A DNA stretch of 64,000 bases, taken from NCBI GenBank assembly GCA_964016885.1, contig OZ024742.1, forward strand, positions 132,804,001 to 132,868,000. Reading direction: 5' to 3'. A model generated the notes under the pieces. It ran no database searches, had not been told where the DNA came from, and saw only the letters and a list, made by a program, of their open reading frames with translations. How positions within the stretch are numbered: the stretch's first letter is position 1; each line of letters begins with the position of its first letter. Source of the DNA: Eledone cirrhosa. Its lineage: Eukaryota. Both the position numbers and the translations under genes were made by a program. Shown here piece by piece: positions 3,102 to 46,169 of this stretch.

Positions 3102-3163
<62 letters not shown>

Positions 3164-3296
3164 TAGATACATACACACATATTTACATATATATGTAAAT
3201 ACATGTATATATATATACATACACACACATATATATATATATAAGTATATATATATATATATACATACATATATAAGTATATATATATATATATAT
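2874..3296. repeat. (TA)n microsatellite, one of many in the window
   Basis: Direct reading; similar tracts at ~10.8, 11.9-12.3, 14.2, 15.2-16.4, 36.7, 57.8 and 60.2 kb. Confidence 0.99.
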
Positions 3297-3359
3297 TAAC
3301 ATAAATGTAAGTATGTATGTATACGTACATACATATATGTATACAGACGTACAGTAGCA

Positions 3360-3397
<38 letters not shown>

Positions 3398-3548
3398 CAG
3401 GTACACATACATATATGTACGTATCAGTTTAGCGGACGCTTATTATAGCGCCCGCTTTGTTCGTTTGTAAACAAACTGAACAGCCTGAATTTATGCCGTA
3501 CGGTGTTAAGGCAACCACGTCACCTTTTTGTTCAACACTGACACAGGA

Positions 3549-3591
3549 ACGATGTACTAGTTTCAAGCTTGTTAGCTATCATCAGCATCGT
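3549..3591 (-). ncRNA. Minimal type I hammerhead ribozyme
   Basis: ACGATG-CTGATGA-tAGCTaacaAGCTt-GAAA-CTAG-TA-CATCGT: 6-bp stem I, intact core, palindromic ACTAGT stem III, GUA triplet. Confidence 0.9.
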
Positions 3592-3823
3592 ATACCCTTC
3601 TGCCAGATGGTTGAACGTTCGATAGTATATACTTTCCTTATGAAAATTAACGGCTGAGCAGCCTAATTTGCATATCGAGTGAGTCCGGCCAGGCGTACCG
3701 AGAACGACAAGTTGTAATAAAATGAAAACGAAATGTCATTTCTCACTCTTAGTACGGCACTTACTTAAATGTAAGTATGTATGTATACGTACATACATAT
3801 ATGTATACAGACGTACAGTAGCA

Positions 3824-3893
<70 letters not shown>

Positions 3894-4122
3894 CAGGTAC
3901 ACATACATATATGTACGTATCAGTTTAGCGGACGCTTATTATAGCGCCCGCTTTGTTCGTTTGTAGAGTGAGAAATGAAATTTCGTTTTCATTTTATTAC
4001 AACTTGTCGTTCTCTGTACGCCTGGCCGGACTCACTCGATATGCAAATTAGGCTGCTCAGCCGTTAATTTTCATAAGGAAAGTATATACTTTCGAACGTT
4101 CAACCATCTGGCAGAAGGGTAT

Positions 4123-4165
4123 ACGATGCTGATGATAGCTAACAAGCTTGAAACTAGTACACCGT
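4123..4165 (+). ncRNA. Minimal type I hammerhead ribozyme, inverted copy
   Basis: ACGATG-CTGATGA-TAGCTAACAAGCTT-GAAACTAGTA-CACCGT; one stem I mismatch. Confidence 0.85.
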
Positions 4166-4316
4166 TCCTGTGTCAGTGTTGAACAAAAAGGTGACGTGGT
4201 TGCCTTAACACCGTACGGCATAAATTCAGGCTGTTCAGTTCGTTTACAAACGAACAAAGCGGGCGCTATAATAAGCGTCCGCTAAACTGATACGTACATA
4301 TATGTATGTGTACCTG

Positions 4317-4380
<64 letters not shown>

Positions 4381-4578
4381 TGCTACTGTACGTCTGTATA
4401 CATATATGTATGTACGTATACATACATACTTACATTTAAGTAAGTGCCGTACTAAGAGTGAGAAATGAAATTTCGTTTTCATTTTATTACAACTTATATT
4501 AACATACATATATGTATATATATATGTATATAAATACATATATGTATATTTACATATATATATAAATACATATATGTA

Positions 4579-4675
<97 letters not shown>

Positions 4676-5851: not shown

Positions 5852-6026
5852 AAAACTTTCGCTCTACATGGCTGAATACATCGCTGTTTACATGCCAACA
5901 CAAGACCAAGAATGAAGAGTTCATTCTACTGACATGGCTATAAAAATGAGGCTTATTTGCAAAATTGCAAACGAAACGAATGTTATTATTAATATTCAAA
6001 AAACTCATATTACATTTATATATATA

Positions 6027-6094
<68 letters not shown>

Positions 6095-6099
6095 AACGG

Positions 6100-6591
6100 T
6101 AAAAATGAAACGAAATATAAGTATGTATACGTACATATATATATGTATACAGACGTACAGTAGTATGTATATATATACATACATGCACACATATATATAT
6201 ATATGTACGTATGGATTCACGGAACATTTATTATAATGCTCTGTGTGTTTGTAAACAAACATCCCGAATTAAGCCGTACAGTGTCTAGCAACCATCGTTG
6301 CTCATTTGTTCAACACTGACAAAGGAGCGCTGTACTAGTTTCAAGCTTATTAACTATCGTCAGCAACGTATACCTTCCTGCCAGATGGTTGAACGTCTGA
6401 AAGTATATACTTTCCTTATGCATAGTAACGGCTGAGCAGCCCAATTTGCATATCGAGTGAGTTAATCGGCCGGGGTACCGAAAAATATAAAGGGAAAAAA
6501 TGAAACGAAATTTCATTTCTCACTCTTAGTACGGCTGTTACTTAAATATAAGTATGTATACGTACATACATATATGTATACAGACGTACAG
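6100..6591 (-). mobile_element. Diverged copy of the ~465-bp HHR unit with terminal redundancy
   Basis: Colinear with 3303-3766; AAATATAAGTATGTATACGTACAT..CAGACGTACAG appears at both ends. Confidence 0.85.
6328..6368 (-). ncRNA. Minimal type I hammerhead ribozyme, covarying homologue
   Basis: CGTTG-CTGACGA-tAGTTaataAGCTt-GAAACTAGTA-CAGCG; changes keep the pairing and the core changes only at variable position N7. Confidence 0.88.
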
Positions 6592-7502: not shown

Positions 7503-7571
<69 letters not shown>

Positions 7572-7675
7572 TATTGAAGTTTCCGTTGAAAATTGAAAAA
7601 GTCATAGAAGTGAAGAGTGCTCTATGTAAGTTACAGAGCTAAATTTAGTGTATAATAAACAATACAATATAATTA

Positions 7676-10997: not shown

Positions 10998-11412
10998 ACA
11001 TTTGGTACAGCATCAACGAAGCCATAGTTGCTGCCAAGCTAACGAATGCAGTTTCTGTGAACAGGATATATAACCCTAGAGTTATAACATTACGTTTAGA
11101 CAGCTTTGCTAAATGAATACAGCGACCGATAGAAGAGTCGCAGTGACCATAGCCACAAAAATGACTGAACTCAGTAAAAATGTGACTAACCTGTATTGTA
11201 CCGTCGGCATCATACATAACACATAATACATATAATATATACCATATAACATACATCACACGTAATCCACAATATCTCCGCTAGGTTTCCGTAAATCCGA
11301 AATCAACAAAATCCACTTGCAGGGGTCTGCAAGTTAATGGTTTTTGAAGTTAGAACAATGGAGTTTTACTTCGTCAGCAGGTTTTTCGTTCTGATCCGCT
11401 ATATATATAGGA

Positions 11413-11637
11413 ATATGTTGAAAACCCCGATGGCAGAGCTCAAGCCGTTTCGACGACTATTTCTGGACGAAGTATCCAGAAATACCTGTCGAAAGTATCC
11501 AGAAATACCTGTCGAAATACCTGCTTGAGCTCTGCCGTCGGTGTCTTGAACATTTTCCTATTACCCACTCCACTACCCCAAGTATTGCGTACTCTGGTGC
11601 GTTATGGTCGACCTGGTTCCTTACCACACTTCCTTCG

Positions 11638-11640
<3 letters not shown>
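11413..11640. mobile_element. Palindromic repeat family carrying the 3' half of a hammerhead
   Basis: CCCCGAYGGCAGAGCTCAAGCCGTTTCGACGRCTATTTCTGG and its reverse complement; homologues at ~22795-22850, 44596-44990 and 63621-63680. Confidence 0.75.
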
Positions 11641-12339: not shown

Positions 12340-12463
12340 TTGCCATTCTGAGTTCAAATCCCGCCGAGGTTAACTTTGCCTTTCATCCTTACGGGGTCGA
12401 TAAAATAAAGTACCAGTAATGTACTGGGTAATTGCTGGCCTTGTGCCAAAGTAGAAACAATTA
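12340..12463 (+). mobile_element. tRNA-derived SINE, 5'-truncated
   Basis: B-box GAGTTCAAATCC then CCGAGGTTAACTTTGCCTTTCATCCTTACGGGGTCGATAAAATAAAGTACC, matching the 45323 copy. Confidence 0.85.
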
Positions 12464-12512
12464 TTTTTTTATCCAGTTAGTAAAATAAGTTGGATTACTT
12501 TGAAAAAAAATA

Positions 12513-12702
12513 ATTGATTCTACTTTTGGCACAAGGCCAGCAATTTTTCCAGTGTATTACTGGTACATTATTTTATCGACCCCGTAAGGATGAAAGGCAA
12601 AGTTAACCTCGGCAGGATTTGAACTCAGAATGGCAAGGGCCTAACTCTATGCTGCAAAGCATAGCGTCCGGCTCTCTACCGCTACTGCCAATCCACCGCC
12701 CT
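12513..12702 (-). mobile_element. tRNA-derived SINE
   Basis: Reverse complement of the 45323-45506 family. Confidence 0.85.
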
Positions 12703-12714
12703 TTTAATAAATAA

Positions 12715-12817
12715 GTGTTTCTACTTTTGGCACAAGGCCAGCAACTACAGTGCATTACTGGTACTTTATTTTATCGACCCCGTAAGGATGAAAGGCAAAG
12801 TTAACCTCGGCGGGAAT
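12715..12817 (-). mobile_element. tRNA-derived SINE, partial
   Basis: 3' half of the same family. Confidence 0.8.
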
Positions 12818-14455: not shown

Positions 14456-14549
14456 TATGGTGAACTACCTCTTGTGTAACCACTTCTATCTAAGTCGTCG
14501 CTTGGATTGAGTGCTCTACCACTACGGATATTACCTTTCAGTGTTCCAC

Positions 14550-14606
<57 letters not shown>

Positions 14607-15409: not shown

Positions 15410-15521
15410 CATATATATATGTATATATAACCAAAAGGTAAACAAGGTTCATTGATTAATCAATGAATATAGTTTTACAATAGATTAGAAGCACACAACC
15501 GTGGAATTTTCTGGAGTTATT

Positions 15522-15868
15522 AATATTAATACAAAATATTAATAAATATAGACATTCATGTAATCAAATATATTTTATTATATATATTTCGTATGTACTG
15601 TGCTGTTTCCTCAGTACATCCTCATCAGATAAACTATATAAATTGATGTATAACATACCTCACCTGTGCTGATGCTTCAATTCCAGTCTTGGCAGATTGC
15701 TAGGACTGGAATTGAACCATCAGCACAATTGAGGTATGTCATACATCAATTTATATATTTTATCTGATGAGGACGTACTGAGGAAACAGCACACTACCTC
15801 AGAAATATATATAATAAAATATATTTGATGACATGAATGTCTATATTTATTAATAATTTTAATTAATA
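15522..15868. mobile_element. Fold-back element with two divergent HHRs
   Basis: ~170-bp inverted arms centred near 15696; HHRs at 15568-15639 (-) and 15753-15824 (+) with CTGATGA, GAAA-TATATA-TA and a long AT-rich stem I. Confidence 0.85.
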
Positions 15869-15872
15869 TGTA

Positions 15873-18640: not shown

Positions 18641-19133
18641 GGGGGGGGGGGGACACTTTCATAAAGTTAAAAGAAAAAAAAGAAAACATACCCCAGGAAA
18701 ACAAATACAAACAAACCCTCCCCAATACATAACACAGACATCAACAGAAAAAAACACACAACAGCAAACAAAAAAACATCACACAAAAACAAAAATATGC
18801 ATACACTTACATAAAAACAATAAACAAAAAACTGCTAAACGTTATTTATAATAACAACTTAATAAAAACCGAAGGTTCTAATTTCGCACAAGCAACGGGG
18901 CTACCGCATTTAAAAATGAAAAAAAACCTCAATGGACATTTACAAAACGTTAAGAGACACTTTTAAAGAGGACGTGTAGACCTCTGCGGCAAACCCATTA
19001 ACCGTGTCCTCCTAAATACCCCCCCCCTCCCCCGACACCCACGCAACTCCAAACGCCCCAACCCCACCACACACTGATGCCTCTACACTTCAACAAACCA
19101 CCATGGTAAGTGCTTTATCTCTTTACCACCAAC

Positions 19134-22100
19134 ATGGCTGTGTTGAGAGTAGGTTGTCTAAATGCGCGTGGCCTGGGCTCACCTTGGAAGCAAGCAATGT
19201 TTCTAAATGACCGCAGGTCACGATGTATAAATGTGATGGTTGTTTGCGAGGGCCGGATCAGCAGCGTGCGACAGCTGGTCCCCACCTTTGATGACTTTGA
19301 GATGCACCCATCTCTGTCAGCCCGGAGGTGGGGGTGGGATTGTCGTTCTCCTGCAAAAACATTTGTGTCTCGCTACACAGACGGTACACTTGGACCAGGA
19401 GGGTCGACTAGTGATTCTGGACCTTGGCAGTGTTGAAGGGGGAGCTTTTATTTTAGGCTGATCGCCGTCTAAGGCCCTTTTGGGTCAATGCGCCCGGACA
19501 TCTTCCATCGTCTGGAGACTTATCTAGGGATGTCCTGCTCCTTGCTTTTAGTGGGGGACTGGAATGGTATCCTAGATGCACATTGTGACTATGTAGGGGA
19601 ATGTCCTTATAGAGGGGGTTGTAACAACCTCAAGGGGTTAATCGACTAGATTTTCCATCTGTGCCAACCTGCACTTGGACAAACCATAGCGGTCAATTTA
19701 TATCGTACCTAGATAGATCCTTTTTTAGAATTAAGGATAGGGACTTTTTAAGTTGTCCAGAAATGCTCATGGTTGGCTATTCAGACCACAATTTAGTGAC
19801 CTCCATGGTCAACCTTGATATAACGCATAGGCAGGGACCCGGTTACTGGAATCTCAACTTGTCCTTACCGGCAAGTAAAGCTTACAGGGACCGGATTTGT
19901 ACTTTAATTAAGGAGCGTTTGACGAGCGCCATCGTCAACGAGCAGGTGGTGGGGATCTCTCAAAAGAGAGATTAAAGTAGCTTCAATAGGAGATAGTAAG
20001 GAGTCAGCCTTATATAGAAATAGAAAGGAAAGAGAGTTGATAGATAGTGTAGAAGAGGCAATTAGAAACGGCGACGTAGCCAGAGTGCTAGCGTCGAGAA
20101 TGGCCTTGGGCCGACGCGAAACACGAAGGGTGCGTTGTCCGAAGCAAAATACGTGCTCTGGGAAACGAGGGTACCAAGGTTGTTAGCTGGGCCCGCGTGA
20201 CAGAAGCCAAAAGTGGGATTAGATCCACTATCCGGTCTTTGCGAGACCAAGATGGACGGGTGATCCTTGAACCTAAGCAGATGTGCGAGGCCTTTCAAAG
20301 GCACTTTGCCCGATTGTTCGGAAGAGGCGAGGGGCCGGATGGGGATGTGGACTTCGGTCCATACCTCGACGGCCTGCCGCGTCTTTCGGACGAGGAGACG
20401 AAGTCCTGCGAGAGGCCGATGTCAGCTGCTGAAATATGGGACGTGCTGAGCCAATGCGGCAGACGCAAATCTCCGGGCCTCGATTGTCTTCCATACGAAC
20501 TGTATTTAAGTATGCCGCACTTGTTCTTCGATCTCCACGAGGTGGTCTACTAAAACTGGCAACAGAACGAGTGAATTCCCTGTTCTGTCACCAAGGGCGT
20601 AGTCTCGCTAGTGAGGAAGGACGAGAACAAGGGGGATGAAATAAGTAATTTCAGGCCCATAATTCTGCTAAATGCAGAGTTAAAGAATTTGGCCAAGGTG
20701 TTAGTAAATAGGTTGGCGCTTGTCGTGAGCAACCTGTGGGAAATGCGCAGACACGCGCCATCCCGTCCAGGTCCATTCACGACAACCTCCACCTCATGCG
20801 ATACATCATAGAGAAGCTTGGAAATGAACACGGTTTGGTGGGGTGAGCAACTTGGATCAATCTAGGCGTTCGATAGGGTCGACCATCGTTACCTGGATGC
20901 GGCGCTAGTGGCCGCATGTTTCGGACCCGTTTTCAGGGGCTGGATCACTGCCATGCACAGCAGCTACATCTGCTCTAGAGTCAAGGGAACGGCTACATCC
21001 CGGAGCCGTTCGAAATCACGAGGTCCATCCGACAGGGATGCCCTTTCTCCTCCATTCTGTATGTATTGGCCCTAGAGCCACTGCTGCAGAAGTTGGAGTT
21101 GTTACAGGGCATCCCTTTGGAACCGGGATTGCGGAAAACGATGTCGGCCTACGCCGATGACGTGTCAACCGCCTCGGAAATCGGGGTGATCGGCACCTTA
21201 CTGGAGGAATACGAAAGGTTTACAGGGGCTAAGCTGAACCGGGACAAGTCAGTCGGTTTGCAACTCGGCGAGTGGAGGGGCAAACCGATGGCCTCCAACG
21301 GCGTCGTCGGACGTTAGACGGAGGGCCCGGTGAAGTTGCTCGGGGTCTGTTTCGGGCCAGACCTCCAGGTCGAGAAGAACTGGGGTGAGGTATCGAACAG
21401 GGTGTTTTCGCTGACGTAGAAGTGGGCTGGTTGCAAACTATCCCTGAAAGGTCGGGCCGAGGTGGCGAACGCTTATATAGCGTCCGTCATCTATTACTGC
21501 CTGACCATCGTGCCTTGCCCAAGGGAAACGCTCACCAAAATGGAGCGCGCGCTCTTCCAATTCCTTTGGAAGAAGCGGGCTTCTTTGGTGAGGAGATCCA
21601 TCTGCTGTCATCACCCTTCGAAAGGAGGGCTGGGGTGCCGTGGCTGCTGATGCGTAAACACGCATTAAGGCTACGGCACCTCTAGGCATTCCTCACCGGT
21701 CAGCAGATGTGGACGCCGTTTGTGAGGCGAGCCTTTCCGACACTCGTCTCGCTCACCGAGCTGCAGTTCTCGGTCAAGAAAAGATCGAGAAAACTGGGCG
21801 CACGGCACACCGAGTGTGCCCAGGCGCTCACGGCTCTCTGGCAGGCGGACCTGTCTATCGGTGGAGTCTCCACCTCGTCATTCTATACAAGGCTGGTGGT
21901 TAGTAGGTGCGAGGACGCCTTCGGAGAAGCCCTAGGCATGGAAGAAGACGAACTGGCCAGCCTATTCGGGAGGACATTTGGCCCGGGATCTATGGACAAC
22001 TTCCAGAGGTCCCTGACCTGTCAGTGCTACCAAGGGGAGCTCCCCGTTCGAGAAAACCTCTACAGACACAGGCGCCCAGGTAGGGACTCCTCGAAAAAGA

Positions 22101-22518
22101 TCTGTCCCAAATGCGATCGCGACGAGAAAACCGTTGCGCACGCATTGGTACACTGCTCGGACGTTGCCGATATGTGGGGCTATGTCGAACGACTGCTGTC
22201 ACGGGTGGGACAAATCCGGTTGAGCACCTAGTCCATTGTAACGATCAAGCCGCCTTCCTCCTTCAAAACTGAAGGAGAAGCGGTTTTCCTCTGTGTAATA
22301 GCCATGGTGAAAGAGGTGGTATGGTGGACACGTTTGAAAGGGCTGAGGTCGGACACCTTTCTCTCCGGCCAACAACTGATCCTTTTCTTTAAATACCATT
22401 TTAAGAGAAGGATCAGAATGGAGAAGAGGTGCTCTACCACAGCAAGTTTTATGAAAGGTGGGTGAAAGTAGCGAGAATGGCCCGTCTGAATGGGCCTACT
22501 CTCTTTATCAGCCTGTAG
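19134..22518 (+). pseudogene. LINE ORF2 (AP endonuclease, reverse transcriptase, C-terminal Cys/His), disrupted
   Basis: Motifs in order: LNARGL, GDWN, SYLDR, SDH, GPGYW, KSPGLD, FRPIILLN, AFDRVDH, IRQGCP, YADD, CPKC..HALVHC. Confidence 0.95.
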
Positions 22519-22871
22519 GTGGAAAGGTGGAAGTTCAAAGGAGCACCCCCTCTCTATACTCCTAAGGAAAAGGGTTGCACACTTTTTCGGGGGGGGGGGG
22601 TAACCCCTAAAACGCCTCCTCCCTCTTGAGGACTGTATTGTTAATTTTATATTTGCTATTTGTTTTTTACTCCTTCCTTTATGTAAAGAGACCCCCCTTT
22701 TATTTGTCCTCTTCTGTTGTGCCCTCGTGGCGAATAAATAGAAACTTATCTATCTATCTATCTATCTATATCTATATATATATATACGAAAATCTTTAAC
22801 CCCGACGGCAGAGTTCAAGCCGTTTCGACGGCTATTTCTGGTCCAGAATATATATATATATATATATATGT

Positions 22872-23248
22872 GTCTAATGGTAGCTAAGATGCTTCCATGG
22901 GCGGTATGGCGGTTGAGCACTGTATGCTCCTACGGAACAGAGTATTATTGAATGGAAAACGAAAATCAGTGATGCATCGAACTCAATTTATTGTGTGTTA
23001 CAATTGTTTCTCCGGTGAACAGCCCGAGTTGCGATCTGTGTGTGGATCGACCTGACTCTAAACCCGCAGTTTCCTCGGACACATCTATTAAAAGAAGACA
23101 TGCTCCGAAATCAATACAGAAGTCCGAGGAACCTGCGGGTTTACACTCAGGTCGATCCACACACAGATCGCACCTCGAGCAGTTCACCGGGGAAACAATT
23201 ATAACACAATAAATTGAGTTCCGATACATCACTGATTTTTCGTTTTCC

Positions 23249-23250
<2 letters not shown>
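22872..23250. mobile_element. Fold-back element with two divergent HHR-like motifs, extended stem II
   Basis: ~130-bp inverted arms 22951-23250; minus motif 22994-23083 TGTGT-CCGAGGA..GAAA-CAATTG-TA-ACACA; homologue at 59585-60175. Confidence 0.8.
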
Positions 23251-23327
<77 letters not shown>

Positions 23328-25244: not shown

Positions 25245-25682
25245 ATAAATTAATAAAAATAATGAATAAAAACAAAGAAACACTTCCTTATATTAAAAAA
25301 TTCATCATTTTACGATCGTTTCTAGGATATATATGTGTGTGTTGGTATGTATATCATATAGATCTATGTAAAATGTTTACAAACTATCAGAGGGAATATA
25401 CATACCTACACATATATATGCTGTCTTCAGAAATAATGATATTTGTTTATTTCCATAAACAAATATCATTATTTCAATAAACAAATATCATTAATTCTGA
25501 AGACAGCATATATATGTGTAGGTATGTATATTCCCTCTGATAGTTTGTAAACATTTTACATAGATCTATATGATATACATACCAACACTAACATATATAT
25601 CCTAGAAACGATCGTAAAATGATGAATTTTTTAATATAAGGAACTGTTTCTTTGTTTTTATTCATTATTTTTATTAATTTAT
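25245..25682. mobile_element. Young fold-back element with two intact-core divergent HHRs
   Basis: ~205-bp nearly perfect inverted arms; TCATTA[T/A]TT-CTGAAGA..GAAA-CGATCG-TA-AAATGATGA at 25302-25439 (-) and 25488-25625 (+). Confidence 0.88.
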
Positions 25683-26048
25683 CTTGACTCTGTTTTCCTG
25701 TGTTTTTCATCGAAAACATTTTGAATACATCTTCTCTTTTCATGATATTTGGATTACATTGAGTTCTTCATACGCATTGGACACTACCGTATATTTTGGT
25801 AGATTTATCTATCTCTCTCTCTATATATATACAGTGCCCCGCAAAAGTTTACAACACATTAGGAAAAATGCGGTTTTAGGTATTTTTAATAAAGTTAGGG
25901 TAATGAAAATTTAACTACCGATAGAACATACAATGAGGCATTTAATGATACAATCATAGTTTTAAAAAAATAACAAGGAAATAACTCATGAAGAAAAATC
26001 AATATTTTTATAACGCAAAAGTTTACAACACATTTATTAAATCATCTC

Positions 26049-27055
26049 TTAATATTTCGTAGCGTAACCTTTGTTGCTAATTATAGCCTGCAGGGCGTTT
26101 GGAGTAGCCTCCTACAAACTTCTTGCATGTTTATTGGCTAATATTTATCCATTCTTCACAACAAATTTTCTTTAGTTCAGGGATATTTTGGGGTTTCTTT
26201 TTTTGAATTCTCTCCACAAATTTTCGATCGGGTTAAGATCTGGAGACTGACTTGGCCATTTTAGAACATTTATTCCATTCGTACTCAACCAAGATTGTGT
26301 TAGCTTTGCAGTATGCTTTGGATTGTTATCTTCTTGACAAAACCAACCTGGCTTTAAGCTGAGAGAATGTGCACTTTGATGTAAATTCCTTTGGAAAATA
26401 CCTCTATAATAAGTGCCACCCATTCTTCCTTCTATTATTTCAATATTTCCTACTCCTGTGGCACTAAAGCAACCCCAGACCATAATTGATCCACCTCCAA
26501 ATTTTACAGTTGGAATATTATTCTTCAGCGAATATTCAGTATCTTTCTTTCCCAGACTTTTGCCACAGCATTTCGACCAAAAATTCAATTTTTGTTTCGT
26601 CCGACTAAAGTACATCTTCCCAAAATGACGCAGGTTTGATGAGATGCTCATTTGCAAAGTTTAATCGACCAAGAACGTTGTTTCCTCGTAAGAAGTGATG
26701 TTTTCCTTGGAGACCTCGAGAAGATATTATATCGACGAAGTGAACGACTAATTGTATCTGTGCTCACTTTTACTCCACTTTCTTCTAGGTCATCCTGAAG
26801 ATTTTTAAGAGTACACCGGGGTTCGTTGCCAATCTTTCTCGTCAATAACCGAGCTGCACGTTCCGTTATCTTTCTAGGACAACAAGGACTAATTAGAGGA
26901 CAGATGGAATGATGAGATTTCCAGTGACGAATTGTACCAACTGAACTCAATGGCACATTTAACTGACAAGATATCTTTCTATAACCAACACCATTTGTAT
27001 GAAGGTCTACAATGCGTTTACAGAGGTCTTGATCAATCAGTTTATTTTTCCCCAT
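26049..27055 (-). pseudogene. Tc1 DD34E transposase, frameshifted
   Basis: MGKNK.. start, SDETK, PTVKFGGGSIMVWGCF, EDNNPKH to WPSQSPDLNPIE with 34 residues between D and E, ending GYATKY*. Confidence 0.95.
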
Positions 27056-27262
27056 ATTGTCCATGTTTACAGGACGGTTGTCAATGTTTACAGGATGGTT
27101 GTCAGACAAATAATGATGTAATGTTTTTAATAGTCCTTAGAAGTTACCTTAAACCTAATCTAGAACATTCTACTGAATATTAAATCTGAAAATTTAAGAA
27201 TTTTCTTGAAAAAAAGCGATAAATATAAAATGTGTTGTAAACTTTTGCGTTATAAACATATT

Positions 27263-27442
27263 TGTTTCTACTTTATGCACAAGTCCAGCAATTACCCAAT
27301 TCATTACTGGTACTTTATTTTATCGACCCCGTAAGGATGAAAGGCAAAGTCAACCTCGGCGGGATTTGAACTCAGATCGTAAAGGGACGTAACTATCCTG
27401 GAAAGCATGGCGTCCGACCCTCTACCGATACTGCCAATCCAC
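27263..27442 (-). mobile_element. SINE inserted in the Tc1 right TIR
   Basis: Full SINE flanked by imperfect TSD TAAACATATT/TAAAAATATT; the left TIR lacks it. Confidence 0.9.
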
Positions 27443-27625
27443 TAAAAATATTGATTTTTCTTCATGTGTTATTTCCTTGTTACTTTTTTAAAAATATGAT
27501 TGTATCATTAAATGCCTCACTATATGTTCTATCAGTAGTTAAATTTTCATTACCCTAACTTTATTAAAAATACCTAAAACTGCATTTTTCCTAATGTGTT
27601 GTAAACTTTTGCGGGGCACTGTATA

Positions 27626-27752
27626 TATTAAAATAACAGATGAAAGTTTAAGCAAATAATCGCTGCTTTAACCCTTAACGCGATCTCCTGAACGTGCCAT
27701 TAAGGGTGACAACAGCGATTCTTTGCTTACACTTTAATATGTTATTTTAATA
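27626..27752. repeat. ~125-bp imperfect hairpin, MITE-like
   Basis: TATTAAAATAACA..TAAGCAAATAATCGCTG..ACCCTTAA pairs with TTAAGGGT..CAGCGATTCTTTGCTTA..TGTTATTTTAATA. Confidence 0.75.
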
Positions 27753-28067
27753 AATATTTGCTCTAGTGTCTTTATATATTTGATATATATTTATCCTTAT
27801 CGAGCCCTCTTTGGATTTTTGTCTTCACATTTATTAATATTACTATATATATTTTTTTTTAATATGGAAAGGCTTCTACAGGACAAGAACTGTTTCATTC
27901 AGGAGAAATCATCAGCTTTCCTGTTGATTTCTCTGCTTTGTTTTGAGTACCTTATATATATATACATATATATATCACGATATAGATTCCATACACTGGT
28001 GGTTTTTCCCTGTTTGATTGATGGAGCACTGTCTCTCTCTCTGGTCCGTTATCTTTTCAACATATTG

Positions 28068-28112: not shown

Positions 28113-31100
28113 TAGCAGTTTAGCCCGGTGTTGCTCGGGTTTATTCATTTGTTATGGAAAGTTACATACAGTTAAACGTGGCTTGAAAGCGAATAAGCTT
28201 ATCAATTAAGTGCATAAAGCAGTTGAACCGGATATTAAAAGTTACGAACCAATTAGCATTTTGGACAATCAATGATTGGTTAATTATCTTCCAATAGCGA
28301 ATTTAGCACACCAAAGTTGCAAGATGGTGGCCCTGATGCCGCTGGGTGACACATCTGTCCGCCATGGTTGACGCTACCAGGAATTAGTTTTCCAGACGGC
28401 ATAGCTCCAACAACTCCAACACCTGCACCAACATCTATAGCACCTCTTTGTAGACGATATTGCGTGTAATCCCTTGAGGAGTGTAAGCGCAAAGTGCATT
28501 CCTGCTCCCTACCTGGGAACAGGCAACATACAGTTGACCATGGGAGAGGTATGTCTCCCCCAAATGGATGCCCGCTACCTACAATGTTTGCCCTTGTGAC
28601 CTGTTAATGGACCTGTCAAAACATCGTCTCATCGGGAAAATCGGATCGACGGAAATCGAACGGGATATCTGAGACCGAGGGGAAAAGGTTCATCCTTGGA
28701 ATGAAAATAGTCTCCCGTCTCCCGCTCCCCGTTACAATGGTGGCCTCAATCAAGTGGGGCGTCATTGACTTGACGACCATGCGAGTACCGTTGCACTGCT
28801 TTGGTGGGCGCATGTCCCTTATTAGCTTAATGAGACAGCCAACCCTAAGCTTAGAGAATGGGAGGTGGGAGCCCTGAGGCTCAAGGGAATTTAATAACTC
28901 AACAGGATAATTAAAGATATCGTCGGGGTCTGACGTCCGGTCGATAGATTTGAAGATGTGCTCTTTACCGGGAATTTTCTCAATCAGTTGCTCGTTAATA
29001 AAATTAATCATGGCATCTTTCGGAGCAATGATGGCCCTTTCGCTGAGCCAATCGAACGTTTTAAAGTTAGATGAGACATTTGGAAAAACTGCCTCCCAAA
29101 GGTCAGAAGGGCTGCTCACAATGTTGCACAGGGAGTGGATTGTTATGCCGCCCTTGTAATCCGCAGGGACCTTGCCCTCACCAAGTTCTAAAATGTTCTC
29201 AGCAAATGCTGCAAACATGTTGTTACCATGCAAATGAGCACGCATATTTGTACAAAGTCTTCACCTGGGGCCACAACGTGGACGACTTAAGGCAGGCACG
29301 CACTTCATCAGCTCTTGTCCCTTTGGGTATGACAGGCAGCGTTTGCAGAAAATCCCCTGATAGCAGAAGGGTTACGCCACCTATAGGAGCCGTAGAATCC
29401 CTAATCTCTTTCAGGGTCCCGTCCAATGCCTCAAGGGCACCCTTTTGTGCCATTAGGCACTAATCCAAAACAATGAGGCAACATTTTTTGAGAACCAGAA
29501 CTTCGTGTGAGCTCTTGCCGATATTGCATGTTGGTGTCGCAGTTTTTACTAAATCCAAGGGGAGTTTAAAGGTTGAATGTGCTGTCCTGCCTCTCAGCAG
29601 CAAAGTAGCAGCGATCCCTGACGATGCAACGGCCAACGCAATTTTTTTCTTCTGACAAATCTTAGCCGGAATCAATTTTGTTACAAAAGTTTTTCCGGTA
29701 CCCCCAGGAGCATCGAGAAAGTAAATACCCCCAGTCTGATTTTGAACCGCGTCAATGATAGTTAAATAGGCCAACCTTTGGTCCGACAGACGTTTGGGCT
29801 CATTTTCCTCTAAGTATTGGGAAAGAGATTCGATGTCATATGCTGTTTCCTGCAATAAATCTGGGGCCAACGTGTTAACTTCATTTGTAACGGTTGACGG
29901 CAAGCCATACGTCGCCAACTTACTCCCACTCATGTCGAGGAAGGCGTCCTCGATATCAATGAGTACCCTGTTGTAGATAATGCCGCTGTAAGCAACGTCC
30001 ACTGAAGGATACTGCAGATGAGCCAGGCGCAGGAAATCCTCAGACATGATGTCTCTGTACTTGACCCATAAAGATTTGGATTCACACTTTTGAAGCAAAA
30101 TGGCAAATAGTTCCTGTAGACCTTTAGGTGATTTCAACAAAGCACCCTCTGCTAAAGTGGAATCCCATTGCGAATTATCGTCCAAAAAACCACGCTTAAA
30201 GCAGGCTTCCCGGTACGTATCACATATTTCTCCATTAACAGTTTTGAGGTCCTGAACACTTTGTGGGTCTACAACTTCATGCAGAAGAAGGCGGAGATGA
30301 AAGCACTCATGCTGACTTGGGGGCACAGTTTAAAACCTTCCAAGACAGCTGTCAAATTTTACACCAGGATGTCTTTCAACAGCCTGACCTGACATTCTTC
30401 GCACCCATGTGTTATTCGACCATATAAAGTTGGATGGAACCTGGGGGTACACAATTGTTTGCGCAAATGTATCGAACTGGCAAAGTTTGAAGAAACCTGT
30501 TAGAGTGGTCTCTTTCGGATCGGCGGCCAGCTTGGCGGCGGTTTGGTCCGTAAAGTAAACCCTTTGCCCATTTTCCAAATGTTCCGCATGCTGTACGATG
30601 GCGGGGTGCCGTTGGTGTAGGGGGAAATCAAATAGGCGCCAAAAAGCTTCATTGCTACTGATGTACCGCCCCGCCAGGTATTCTGTGAACTCATCAGAGC
30701 CCTTATTTACATATTTGCATATGTATATTGACGGAGTTGCCAAACTCAACGTTGATGTGGGCGTTGAACATCTTCAAGAGAAGCGGGCAGTAAGGGACCA
30801 CACATCTATTGTCGATTGACCTCCCGTTACTGCTGTGGTGAAGCCACTGTTCTCGGGCCGTCTCCGCCTGTACAGGGGGTACCCATCGTCACCAGTCTGA
30901 GTCTCGTCAACAATTTTTGGGGGGTATCCCTTACTGCACGACGCCCTTTCAGACACGTGTGATGCCCATTAGGACTCGACGCACACGGACCATGTTAGCT
31001 TTGACGATGTCATGTAATTCCTGGTCAGTTGCTGGGTTAGGGATTTCAGCCGAAATGAAGCTTCTATGGCATTTGAATTGATTTTATCAGCTAACCAAAT

Positions 31101-31959
31101 CAAAATGTGAGCATGTGGCAGCCCTCGTTTTTGCCATTCGGCGGTGGACATGTCACATTTTACAGCCCCAAATACCTGACCTTTTTTGATTAAAGCCATG
31201 AGTTTAGCCAGTTTCAGTCTGAACACTCTGGCAATGAGATCATGTCTGTTCGAATAATTTTGCCCAGGAAAAAGTTCACGGGTTACATTCCGATTCATAT
31301 GTCTATAGCATTAATCTGTTATATGATGTGTTATTTTGCGGGTTGTTATTTGCAATAAGCCGATTGAAAATGCCCCAGATAAGCCGTATAGCAATACGGA
31401 ACGCTCCGCTGCAGTGTTGTCATATAGGGAGTGAAGAGCGTCAGAAAGAGTAAAGCTATGGTGGTTGTGTTGCTTAGGTTTCAAAGTTTGTGTTGCGTTC
31501 CTTCAAAAGAAGTTTTGTCGTTCTAAATTGTAATGTTGATAGGGTAGTAGACGGAGGCAGTAACCTTTTAAAGAGAGTTGCAGAGGAGATTGAGGAAGGG
31601 GGGGAGTAGAGAGAGTGATGAACCGTTTAAAGAGAGTTGCAGAGGAGATTGAGAGTGGAGTAGAGGGAAATATGAACTTTTTAAAGAGAGTTGCAACATG
31701 TATGTAGTTTCATATATTTTTGATAGTAGTAGTGAGAGGAATGAAGCATGTAAGATAGAGGGTTACAGCATATATTTAGTTTTATCGATTTTTTTTCATA
31801 GAAGCAGGACATGTTTGGCAAAAATAATTACGTGTTGACCTGCCCTGGTAAATTTGGAGGACATTGGAAAAAAAATCATCAAAATCGGTAGAGAAATGTG
31901 GAAATACATAAAAATCATACACACACAGAGACAGACATCTACCGTTTTATATATATAGA
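28112..31959 (-). mobile_element. Helitron, decayed autonomous type with internal deletions
   Basis: Minus strand begins A|TCTATATATATAAAACG and ends CCCGAGCAACACCGGG hairpin..CTAG|T; contains RepHel remnants. Confidence 0.93.
28500..31298 (-). pseudogene. Helitron RepHel (HUH endonuclease plus PIF1-like SF1 helicase), disrupted
   Basis: EWQKRGLPHAHIL, KYVNKG, RYISSNEA, DAPGGTGKT, GRTAHS, SGDFLQTLPVI, CNGTR, QGQTL, QLYVACS. Confidence 0.95.
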
Positions 31960-34190: not shown

Positions 34191-34321
34191 GCAAAAGTTC
34201 TATTTAAAATTGTTGGGATACAACAAGTAAATATTTTTATAACTGATATAAAGCACTCGACAAGTATTTGGAGTAGATATACGATATTAATAAATGGAAA
34301 CTATATTTATAAAACCATATT

Positions 34322-34386: not shown

Positions 34387-34694
34387 CAATATATAACAGT
34401 TTTACAAATAAGCTTTGAAGTACCCTTTTAAAATGCAACCATTATTTTTGGAAGCCATCTGGATAGTGAATTGTTTATATTATTTTAATAAGTCTTAGTG
34501 TTAAGGACAATTAGAAATGGAAAAAGATGAGTATTGACATACGTCAATACTCATCTTTTTCCATTTCTCCGAGGGTTCTTCACCCCACTATCAGGCTAAA
34601 TAATTTCTTTAATTTCTTTAGTCAAAATACGGCGATAGCTGACATTTCTAATAATTTCAAATCCACTCGCTGTTTCGAAAATATTCTTACATGC

Positions 34695-39511: not shown

Positions 39512-39551
<40 letters not shown>

Positions 39552-39658
39552 ATTTACATCTACACAAACTAAATAAAGTCACTTATATATATATATATTT
39601 TGGCAACCATTCACGATGTGGCTCAATGATGAATTAATAAATTAAATAATCAGAGCAA

Positions 39659-39770
39659 TATACTATAAAGTATGTCCATAGAATTATTTGATATTATATA
39701 TACATCATTTCCTCTCCAAAATGGTGTGTATATATTATCAAATGATTCTATGGACATACTTTATAGTATA
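39659..39770. repeat. ~110-bp palindrome within a dispersed repeat, homologous to 58345-58515 and 58707-58770
   Basis: TACTATAAAGTATGTCCATAGAAT..ATTCTATGGACATACTTTATAGTA. Confidence 0.8.
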
Positions 39771-39967
39771 TGTATATATATGTATATATACGATTTTAAT
39801 CTCGATTACGTAGAACACGAACTCCTCAAAAGTGTTGACCAATTCAGGAGTAGCAGAATATCCGGTGTCATTAACTGCTGTAACATTTGCAGTTGATGAC
39901 TCCTTGTCGAGTGAGGTAGATGCTTCCAGAACGACCCCAAGCCTTTTGCTTTTATACACCTTTTGCA

Positions 39968-42796: not shown

Positions 42797-42979
42797 TTTC
42801 TATAAAGCCTAATCCCTGAAAACCAACGTTGAAGTACGTTATTGATTGCGAGAGATAACGAGATGAGAGAGATAATATTGAAGGCTACCTGAAAATTATA
42901 GCAACCAGCATGCAAAAAACACACAAAGGACAATTTGGAGGATACAATTTTCAATGCTTGAAATCTGAAGAAATATAAT

Positions 42980-43163
42980 AGTTTCTATTTTAGCCACATG
43001 GCCTGCAATTACCCCAATCCATTAACGGTACCTTATTTTAAGACTCCGTAAGGATGAACGGCAAAGCTAACCTTGGCGGGATTTTTACTCAGAACGTAAA
43101 GGGCCATACCCCTATGCTGCAAAGCATGGTGTCTGATGCTCTACCGATACTGCCAATCCATCC
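42980..43163 (-). mobile_element. tRNA-derived SINE, diverged
   Basis: CCGTAAGGATGAACGGCAAAGCTAACC..CTCTACCGATACTGCCAATCCA. Confidence 0.8.
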
Positions 43164-44576: not shown

Positions 44577-44595
44577 ATATATATATATGAAATGA

Positions 44596-44990
44596 TTCAG
44601 GACCCCGACGGTAGAGCTCAAGCCGTCTCGACGGCTATTTCTGGACATATTTATATATATATATAACGAATTCAGTGTGGTAAGAAACCAGGTGGACCAT
44701 AACGCGCCAGAGTACTCGATACTTTGGGTAGTAGAGTGGGTAATAGGAAAAGAGTCATAACCCTGAGGCAGAGCTCGAGCCGTTTCGACAGCTATTTTAC
44801 GACTAAAATTTTAGTCCAGAAATAGCCGTCAAAACAGCTTGAGCACTGCCGTCGGGATCCTGTACCTTTTCCTATATATATATATATAACAAAGAAAATG
44901 TGGTAATAAACCAGATGGACCATAACACACCAGAGTACTCGATACTTAGGGTAGTAGGGTGGGTAATAGGTTAAGAGTAAGGACCACTGA
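44596..44990. mobile_element. Cluster of the palindromic half-HHR family
   Basis: Three segments homologous to 11413-11640; palindrome centre GACTAAAATTTTAGTC. Confidence 0.75.
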
Positions 44991-45322: not shown

Positions 45323-45506
45323 GTGGATTGGCAGTATTGGTAGAGAGTCGGACACCATGCTTTCCAGCGTAGTTACGTCCCTTTACGGTCTGAGTTCAAA
45401 TCCCGCCGAGGTAGACTTTACCTTTCATCCTTACGGGGTCGATAAAATAAAGTACCAGTAATGCACTGGGTAATTGCTGGCCTTGTGCCTAAAGTAGAAA
45501 CAATTA
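45323..45506 (+). mobile_element. tRNA-derived SINE, reference copy, octopus-type
   Basis: A-box-like TGGCAGTATTGGTAGAG and B-box GAGTTCAAATCC; about nine copies or fragments in the window. Confidence 0.88.
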
Positions 45507-46169
45507 TTGCATTATAAATGCAGACAATGGATACTCTACGCCCTCTTACGGCATTAAGTGTGGCAGAAACTCGAGTACGGGTATACATTTATGGTACCTA
45601 TTTACGTGAGTTGTAGCGAGGCAAATAACTTTGTGCCCACTCTGAGATGTATACATAACCTTACCCATGTGTACACCGAGGTGTAATCGGTACTAGCAGA
45701 GAAACATTCATTTTATTAAGGCTATACTTTTAGTTATGTTACTCTGATGTTTCGCCTGATTATCAGAGGGTCATCAGCCCCGTCGTCAACTACATAAATA
45801 GAAGTATGATTCTACTTATGTAAACTCCAGCTGTTAATAAGTGGTGATATATATGTAGATAAATTCCATTTGAAATTGGAAAGTTTGAAAAGTCTTTTTG
45901 AATATATTTCCATCGGACTGGAAATGAAAGTACTAAAATCGTCAATATATCTCAAACAAAATAAACGAATGTACTAGCATCTGTTATTTCATAAGCGAGG
46001 AATGTCCATAGATATTCCACAGACACGTGTAGATAAAACGTAGTTCTGTTGTGAGATCAACACGATGTACTATGACAAGATTATAAATTTGCACACTGTA
46101 AAGTTTATCGAACAGACTTCCATAATCTTGCTTCCATAAAGAAACTGTAAACAAATAATATATATATAA

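What the first reader, a model, noticed from the sequence alone, without database searches (positions are those of the whole stretch)
22872..23250. Twin-HHR family with ~60-nt stem II insert and covarying stem I
Seen: left-arm stem I is UGUGU/ACACA here and ACGUAU/AUAGGU at 59.9 kb, with a G-C to A-U swap at the second pair. Both arms here carry CCGAGGA (U4C), whereas both arms at 59.9 kb carry CUGAGGA. Arms therefore resemble their partner more than the other locus, which implies arm-to-arm copying at or before insertion, or later conversion.
Basis: partly seen in the sequence, partly recalled or inferred. Interest (0 to 1): 0.7.

Follow-up and report, generated by a model that had tools for sequence, protein, structure and literature searches.

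The report
Penelope-like fold-back with long-armed hammerhead
This is an old, dead insertion of a Penelope-like jumping gene, two shortened head-to-head copies of its end segment, each with a self-cutting RNA motif; the layout is well known, and only the unusually long stem and an altered core letter of the motif are small novelties.

Summary
Both loci are inverted pairs of type I hammerhead-like motifs with a 61–62-nt helix II region. Stem I has the stated G-C/A-U swap, and the four arms group by locus at 15 of 15 informative sites. The inference is weaker. Layout, (TA)n target, one-sided tail and fixed tail-less end match the published inverted 5'-truncated insertions of Penelope-like elements (PLEs), and unrelated families in this window show the same layout. 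Contigs of one related sample show C4 in other copies (87–99% of depth there), so U4C is a subfamily trait, not a sign of arm-to-arm copying. Each arm holds sequence the other lacks (an ~80-nt tail on the left, ~22 nt extra 5' on the right). Joints vary between copies, and there is no conversion tract. Best model: both arms were reverse-transcribed at insertion from one source RNA, from two start sites, then joined. Being on opposite strands, the motifs cannot act as a cis dimer, and both right arms are decayed. No reverse-transcriptase ORF was found, so the clade is unassigned. Worth following: a subfamily that spread with a weakened core, and a tail hairpin motif shared across families.

The parts
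22849..22869 (.). (TA)n target remnant on the left of element A, shared with a neighbouring stub of another hammerhead family (22786-22849)
22872..22950 (-). One-sided 3' extension ('tail', ~79 nt) of the left arm; holds a hairpin and the octamer GAGYRCUC with 1 mismatch (22915-22922)
   Evidence: 80% alike to B tail over 84 nt; outside the inverted repeat; motif; other copies carry the exact octamer (22922 G>C in 96% of depth)
22951..23089 (-). Left arm: 5'-truncated pseudo-LTR-like segment, truncated ~11 nt upstream of the core
   Evidence: 3 of the 24 listed contig pieces end at 23089 (table 8)
22993..23084 (-). Type I hammerhead-like motif: stem I 5' strand 23084-23079, CCGAGGA 23078-23072 (U4C), 61-nt helix II region 23071-23011, GAAA 23010-23007, palindromic helix III CAAUUG, predicted cut after GUA at 22999, stem I 3' strand 22998-22993
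   Evidence: cleavage not tested
23090..23112 (+). Centre: family sequence upstream of the right arm's core, present only in + orientation
   Evidence: 18 of 22 nt identical to the same place in B; 3 listed contig pieces run from 23089-23091 into the right arm
23113..23251 (+). Right arm, tail-less; core CCGAGGA 23124-23130, GAAA 23192-23195; stem I (23119, 23121) and helix III (23201) broken by letters that other copies mostly lack
   Evidence: (other letter in 94-99% of depth in X1)
23251..23327 (.). (TA)n on the right of element A
59580..59660 (-). Tail of sister element B
59661..59851 (+). Later insertion of a SINE-like repeat (six further matches in the window) at the tail-arm border of B
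   Evidence: no clear target duplication seen
59862..60172 (.). Inverted arms of B: left core CUGAGGA at 59978 (minus), right core at 60043 (plus, U16.1>C); ends at the same tail-less boundary as A, then (TA)n 60171-60275

Best explanation
A and B are dead, doubly 5'-truncated, head-to-head insertions of a Penelope-like element (PLE) family, from two different subfamilies. Shown by sequence: the layout, the (TA)n site, the one-sided tail, fixed outer ends, variable inner ends and independent decay of each arm (about 5% per arm). Inferred from the in vitro behaviour of the anole element PAc: the element's protein nicks both strands of an AT-rich site and primes reverse transcription from each nick on the element's RNA. 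One cDNA starts at the far start site (with tail), the other at the near site (without tail). Both stop early near the structured hammerhead, and their 5'-truncated ends are joined by end-joining. The arms are alike because both were read from the same or a sister RNA, and U4C was inherited from the source subfamily. The 'twin' hammerheads are a by-product with no joint function.
For: Head-to-head inverted 5'-truncated copy with a one-sided tail and microsatellite bias is the described PLE layout (PMC8557442; PMC3846280). Dual minimal hammerheads 100-700 bp apart on opposite strands are described (PMC4209133). PAc nicks and extends both strands, and its tail is the stretch between two RT start sites (PMC11167929). 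A and B right arms end at the same base, and tails are ~79-81 nt in both. The same layout is seen in unrelated families C (2 loci), D (2) and E (1) of the window. The tail-less arm reaches further 5' in A and B, the tailed arm in C2. In one search the 15 listed joints (of 17) all differ, 6 of them join tail-only pieces to the other arm, none of the 24 listed pieces bridges A's joint at 23089/23090, and 8 and 17 contigs (X2, X3) leave the element at 23246 into AT-rich letters. Summed depth falls from ~2e5 near the 3' end to ~2e2 at the centre. A transcript of A folds into one hairpin of -213 to -228 kcal/mol that buries the motif.
Against: No RT or GIY-YIG ORF is linked: none among the 15 ORFs scanned of 87 listed (one search found only LINE-type RT, Tc1 and Helitron domains), and the peptide search gave 0 hits among 14 candidates. 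Tails here are 78-110 nt, not the published 30-40 bp. The base of helix II is A.A or A.G, not the conserved G10.1-C11.1. The joints rest on one contig per run from one sample, and 9 of the 10 same-strand joints are marked 'between: not known'. Palindromes lose their centres after insertion, which could mimic independent truncation. The depth fall also reflects sister families with a different helix II and the 80% cut-off. Some states shared by both A arms are rare among laid contigs (23016/23186 ~5%, 23138 13%, 23141 9%), which fits one RNA molecule but fits self-priming equally.
Confidence: 0.68

Rival explanations
1. Same PLE origin, but the palindrome arises by self-priming (fold-back copying) on a longer precursor before or during integration, so that one arm is a copy of the other's precursor. 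This is the published model for head-to-head pLTRs and the closest to the first reader's idea.
For: PMC3846280 interprets palindromes at inverted junctions as self-priming on an antisense template. Both A arms share states rare in other copies; both B arms share a G.G mismatch in stem I and a 1-nt insertion relative to A. C1 and D2 are nearly symmetric, and C2 has a short perfect hairpin at its joint.
Against: The tail and the extra 5' sequence lie on different arms in A and B, and the 5' asymmetry is reversed in C2. Six of 15 listed joints have no overlap between the arms. The fixed tail-less end still needs a second start site.
Confidence: 0.2
2. Arms were homogenised after insertion by gene conversion or cruciform repair.
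For: Grouping by locus at 15 of 15 sites; inverted repeats can convert (established knowledge).
Against: Arms differ by ~11%, with 3, 8, 6 and 5 private changes. Differences are spread as by chance (P 0.42 and 0.81 for the longest identical run). Family D shows no partner effect. U4C is shared with other copies. Very old conversion cannot be excluded.
Confidence: 0.05
3. A functional twin-ribozyme cassette or retrozyme-like unit that excises or circularises the RNA between two hammerheads and spreads as a unit.
For: Two loci with similar layout; stem I pair 2 is compensated; palindromic helix III suits dimeric cleavage (PMC4209133).
Against: The motifs lie on opposite strands, so one transcript holds one motif and its antisense. 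Non-LTR retrozymes are direct tandem repeats. Both right arms are broken, and the joints differ between A, B and other copies.
Confidence: 0.04
4. A MITE or fold-back DNA transposon with long terminal inverted repeats at a TA target, the hammerhead pattern being chance.
For: Long inverted repeats flanked by TA; no Rfam hammerhead hit; a Tc1-type transposase relic is in the window.
Against: One end carries a 79-nt extension outside the repeat; depth falls inward from both ends; solo arms occur in other families; the hammerhead pattern is enriched about 30-fold.
Confidence: 0.03

Closest known systems
Inverted 5'-truncated pLTR insertions with a one-sided tail of endonuclease-bearing Penelope-like elements (PMC8557442; PMC3846280; PMC11167929)
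   Same: Head-to-head arms, both 5'-truncated, tail on one arm only, fixed outer ends, AT-rich or (TA)n target, hammerhead motif in the repeated segment.
   Different: No ORF remnant (both arms are cut within ~10-50 nt upstream of the core); tail ~80 nt rather than 30-40 bp; parent element and clade not found.
Minimal type I hammerheads of metazoan PLEs (Cervera and De la Pena 2014, PMC4209133)
   Same: CUGANGA-N core with an unpaired base after A9, GAAA, very short palindromic helix III, short stem I, opposite-strand pairs 100-700 bp apart.
   Different: The helix II region is 61-62 nt, more than twice the longest in the printed alignment of 56 representatives (their descriptor limits helix size). 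No G10.1-C11.1 pair. The A subfamily has C4, while every row read there has U4.
Non-LTR retrozymes (PMC7229834; bioRxiv 10.64898/2026.07.22.740005)
   Same: Non-coding, type I hammerhead, linked to PLE pLTRs.
   Different: Retrozymes are direct tandem repeats of ~300-nt units; this is a single inverted pair.
Natural U4C hammerhead variant of a viroid (as cited in PMC3088659)
   Same: Same core change.
   Different: There it lowers activity in vitro but permits infectivity; here activity is untested, in a different scaffold.

Membership tests
Penelope-like element (EN+) | ORF with telomerase-like RT and GIY-YIG endonuclease | tested here: inconclusive
   None in the element (too truncated) or among 15 window ORFs scanned; peptide search empty; no genome held.
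Penelope-like element (EN+) | 5'-truncated copies arranged as direct or inverted pLTRs | tested here: met
   variable inner joints and inward depth fall.
Penelope-like element (EN+) | Optional tail on one end | tested here: met
   Present on one arm in A and B, but ~80 nt against 30-40 bp published.
Penelope-like element (EN+) | Type I hammerhead motif within the pLTR | tested here: met
   Pattern met in both left arms; cleavage untested.
Penelope-like element (EN+) | Bias for AT-rich or microsatellite targets | tested here: met
   (TA)n on both sides of A; short TA left and long (TA)n right of B.
Type I minimal hammerhead of metazoan PLEs | Core C3 U4 G5 A6 N7 G8 A9 and G12 A13 A14 A15.1 | tested here: inconclusive
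   Met in B; A differs at U4C, a variant reported as weakly active elsewhere.
Type I minimal hammerhead of metazoan PLEs | G10.1-C11.1 pair closing helix II | tested here: not met
   A.A or A.G at the base, C-G one step out in 3 of 4 arms. Other contigs sharing the 3' half mostly have C before GAAA (70% of depth at 23011).
Type I minimal hammerhead of metazoan PLEs | Short palindromic helix III, U16.1 and H17 | tested here: met
   CAAUUG-UA in both left arms; broken in both right arms.
Type I minimal hammerhead of metazoan PLEs | Stem I closing the core | tested here: met
   5 pairs in each left arm; 2 of 6 pairs change on both sides; weak statistics.
Hammerhead ribozyme | Self-cleavage after NUH | not testable with these tools
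   Needs an in vitro assay.
Non-LTR retrozyme | Direct tandem repeats each with a type I hammerhead | tested here: not met
   No tandem array at A or B; arms are inverted.
MITE / fold-back DNA transposon | Both termini are the two ends of one inverted repeat, with a constant interior | tested here: not met
   Tail outside the repeat on one side; joints differ among copies.

The most novel reading that the evidence does not exclude
A PLE subfamily multiplied while carrying a hammerhead with a weakened core (U4C, no G10.1-C11.1) and a 61-nt helix II. That would be a natural experiment showing that the motif is kept as a structural or protein-binding element, not for cleavage. In addition, at least five otherwise unalignable hammerhead families in this genome share a hairpin closed by RCUC/GAGY and followed by RCUC, 6-8 nt past the tail-less end and 44-68 nt before the tailed end. 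It is a candidate docking site that sets the two reverse-transcription start points.
Probability: 0.25. Interest if true: 0.55.

Novelty: new variant of a known kind. Interest (0 to 1): 0.27.

Why it matters
The palindrome itself is ordinary debris, and arm-by-locus similarity is what any single-source insertion gives. The family is useful as material. The role of PLE hammerheads is open: core mutants did not stop insertion of PAc in vitro (PMC11167929), and a subfamily that spread with U4C would be the in vivo counterpart. A genome with very many short inverted pairs also allows a direct count of twin priming against self-priming, and a test of whether a conserved tail hairpin fixes the two start sites.

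Tried and rejected
Rfam: 0 hits at gathering threshold in the window; only hairpin-type chance hits up to E=10 at the locus. No whole genome is held. Pattern scans found 0 loci in viral contigs and 0 in metagenome contigs, so the multi-locus arm phylogeny could not be built; only quartets inside the window were possible. Sequencing runs: 3 listed, one sample, no RNA holder listed; this says nothing on expression. Protein-coding reading of the helix II region: frames are open for ~40-60 codons, but by my reading most A/B differences in that frame change the residue, and the search with the A-left peptide found nothing; rejected as unsupported. A tRNA B-box-like word in B's helix II is absent from A; not pursued. 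Assembly fold-back artefact: rejected, arms differ at ~11% of sites. Recent conversion: no tract. The stem I pair-5 swap (C-G against U-A) was discounted because two CpG deaminations would give it; CpG is not depleted in the arms (o/e 1.07 and 1.2), so this is only a caution. Helix II rod: z = -2.9 and -2.7 for the right arms but -0.6 and -1.1 for the left arms (the B-right stretch was cut one base off), and whole-motif folds do not give the hammerhead as minimum. Earlier scan notes by sequence and place: nothing. Paper searches for a prior description of this family or of the tail octamer found none; Repbase/Dfam and subscription papers were not searchable.

Full report
Setting. The window is eukaryotic, AT-rich and crowded with (TA)n, (CA)n and (GA)n tracts. 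It holds relics of a LINE-type RT, a Tc1-type transposase and a Helitron (15 of the 87 ORFs were scanned). From memory, the multi-copy SINE-like repeat resembles octopus repeats; this is recalled and comes from no call. No whole genome is held.

Observation. Element A reads (TA)n, a ~79-nt single-copy segment (22872-22950), a left arm on the minus strand (22951-23089), a centre (23090-23112), a right arm on the plus strand (to 23251), then (TA)n. Element B (~59580-60172) has the same parts, with a SINE-like repeat inserted at 59661-59851. A pattern scan for type I hammerheads finds 11 cores in the window, both left arms among them, against a mean of 0.35 in 40 shuffles. The stretch between core and GAAA is 61 nt in A and 62 nt in B. 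Both A arms have C at position 4, both B arms U. Stem I pair 2 is G-C in A and A-U in B. The arms group by locus at 15 informative sites, by side at 0.

Quality of the motif. Helix III is the palindrome CAAUUG followed by UA, as in metazoan PLE hammerheads that are thought to need dimers (PMC4209133, parts 1-2 of 4 of the text read). Helix II can be drawn as an imperfect rod with 85.7% of cells paired, but none of its 21 pairs changes on both sides, and the covariation score of the whole structure is reached by 33 of 500 shuffles. The folding z-score of the insert is -2.9 and -2.7 in the right arms and -0.6 and -1.1 in the left arms. The base of helix II is A.A or A.G instead of the conserved G10.1-C11.1. 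Both right arms are damaged: A-right has 2 stem I pairs and a broken helix III, B-right has U16.1>C. Rfam gives no hammerhead hit. In the printed alignment of 56 PLE-type motifs (supplement parts 1-2 of 3) helix II regions are less than half as long and every row read has U4, but that survey's descriptor limits helix size. Other families in this window have helix II regions of 14 to 36 nt, so long helix II is a local trend and 'insert' is not shown to be the direction of change. U4C is cited as lowering activity considerably in vitro while allowing viroid infectivity (PMC3088659, passages; the only paper found with that term).

What it is. An inverted 5'-truncated copy, a tail at one end and a bias for microsatellites are the described features of PLE insertions (PMC8557442, 12 of 21 passages; PMC3846280, 9 passages; PMC8969392, passages). 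Opposite-strand hammerhead pairs 100-700 bp apart were already noted. For the anole element PAc, the protein nicks AT-rich DNA on both strands, extends both, and starts reverse transcription at two internal sites whose spacing is the tail; hammerhead core mutants did not affect insertion (PMC11167929, parts 1-2 of 4). The same layout recurs in unrelated families of the window: C (15430-15870; 63250-63552), D (11406-11640; 44665-44876) and E (39550-39771), with tails of about 78-110 nt. Non-LTR retrozymes are direct tandems and do not fit (bioRxiv 10.64898/2026.07.22.740005, part 1 of 5; PMC7229834, passages). No linked RT was found, so the verdict is 'works like, and very probably is, a PLE relic'; the clade is open.

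Other copies. Three runs of one sample hold the family (best share of words 0.29, so probably a relative and not the source). At 80% likeness 1569, 1433 and 1395 contigs were laid. Summed depth is ~2e5 at the 3' part of each arm, ~1e3 at the left core and ~2e2 at the centre, while the listed single pieces have depth 3-28. The tool warns that this is no copy number. It indicates a very abundant 3' segment, shared with sister families whose sequence differs 5' of GAAA (loose ends, table 7). At 23125 (position 4) T accounts for 10%, 13% and 1% of depth. The roughly 11-15 contigs per run that cover this region differ from A-right at 23119, 23121, 23138, 23141, 23144 and 23146, so they are other copies that also carry C4. 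The 80% filter favours A-like copies, so this shows that a C4 subfamily exists, not that it dominates. Only 40 of 61 variant rows were shown; the matching left-arm position 23077 is not among them.

Arm-to-arm copying? Grouping by locus does not decide this. In-window quartets give locus/side/crossed counts of 15/0/0 (A,B), 6/1/0 (C), 1/1/2 (D) and 2/0/0 (E; second locus in direct orientation): the partner effect follows the distance between loci. Arm differences are spread as by chance, so there is no recent conversion. The left arm alone has the tail. The centre is family sequence in the right arm's orientation: 18 of 22 nt match B, and listed contig pieces end at 23089 or start at 23089-23091, none of 24 bridging A's joint. 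So both arms derive from a longer precursor. The right arms of A and B stop at the same base, and contigs leave the element there into AT-rich letters. The 15 listed joints of 17 all differ, and 6 join a tail-only piece to the other arm, which fold-back copying cannot make directly. Against over-reading: each joint rests on one contig per run, 9 of 10 same-strand joints may hide letters between, and palindromes can lose their centres later. In favour of a single RNA molecule, both A arms share states that are rare among laid contigs (23016/23186, 23138, 23141), and both B arms share a G.G mismatch and a 1-nt insertion. That fits twin priming on one RNA and also self-priming on an antisense template, the model of PMC3846280. 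I put twin priming from two start sites first (0.68 for the whole explanation), self-priming second (0.2), conversion at 0.05.

Function now. None expected. A transcript across A carries one motif and its antisense and folds into a hairpin of -213 or -228 kcal/mol, so the two motifs cannot form a cis dimer. No RNA run was listed, which is no evidence either way.

By-product. The octamer GAGYRCUC lies 44-68 nt before the tailed end in 5 of 13 element ends exactly and in 3 more with one mismatch; it has 2 or more mismatches in 5 (C1, E1, I57667, J4129, J6363). Background is 0.8% and 6.4% per 80-mer. Of the 7 exact sites in the window, 6 are in such tails. In 5 of the 9 ends examined an RCUC 16-21 nt upstream pairs fully with its first half, once through a G-C for A-U swap; individual P values are weak (0.01-0.28), and the other 4 ends pair 3 of 4. 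The motif was chosen after seeing the data, so this is a lead. One text search found no mention.

Novelty. The architecture is known. A 61-nt helix II, a C4 subfamily and ~80-nt tails were not found in the papers seen (searches); repeat databases, subscription journals and the supplements of PMC8557442 and PMC11167929, which list PLE families and tails, were not examined and may already hold this family. Earlier notes of this scan on shark genomes reach the same general reading; they are unchecked and are not counted as support. Verdict: new variant of a known kind, interest 0.27.

Noticed in passing
window 7570-7660, 14470-14552, 34191-34280, 44665-44745, 59580-59660, 63250-63345, 22872-22950, 11562-11640: Tails of otherwise unalignable hammerhead families share the near-palindromic octamer GAGYRCTC, often as the 3' side of a hairpin opened by RCTC 16-21 nt upstream.
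   Followed up: partly
window 15430-15870 and 63250-63552: A second fold-back hammerhead family with ~93-nt tails; the 63.5-kb joint has a short perfect hairpin (63485-63518) and apparent microhomology, like a templated insertion at end-joining.
   Followed up: partly
window 11406-11640, 44665-44980, 22786-22849, 44588-44646, 63622-63682: A third family holding only the GAAAC/helix III half of a hammerhead with a longer helix III; two inverted pairs and three solo stubs, all next to TA; 23-nt tandem duplication at the 11470-11517 joint.
   Followed up: partly
window 3106-4638 and 6011-6591: Complex fold-back with internal duplications and compact hammerhead cores (3585 minus, 4129 plus, 6363 minus); a long block is 95% complementary, so it may be young.
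   Followed up: no
window 7737 (-), 14421 (+), 34378 (-), 57667 (+): Solo type I hammerhead-like motifs upstream of (TA)n with helix II regions of about 11-36 nt.
   Followed up: partly
window 12340-12815, 27263-27440, 42969-43159, 45325-45507, 55456-55604, 59661-59851: SINE-like repeat of ~190 nt; the copy at 12340-12636 is itself a fold-back. One copy interrupts element B, another sits in the end of the Tc1-like element.
   Followed up: no
window 25245-25682, 27622-27756, 34513-34568, 39550-39771: Further palindromes without a detected hammerhead core; 25245-25682 is 95-97% complementary.
   Followed up: no
window 19110-22231 (+), 25825-27628, 28616-31310 (-): Decayed LINE-type element (RVT_1, zf-RVT) ending just left of the finding, a Tc1-type transposon with ~186-nt inverted repeats, and a Helitron relic.
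   Followed up: partly
window 58801-58944 and 59425-59571: 147-nt direct duplication at 96% identity immediately left of element B, bracketing a 480-nt stretch that holds the seventh exact GAGTGCTC site (59318).
   Followed up: no
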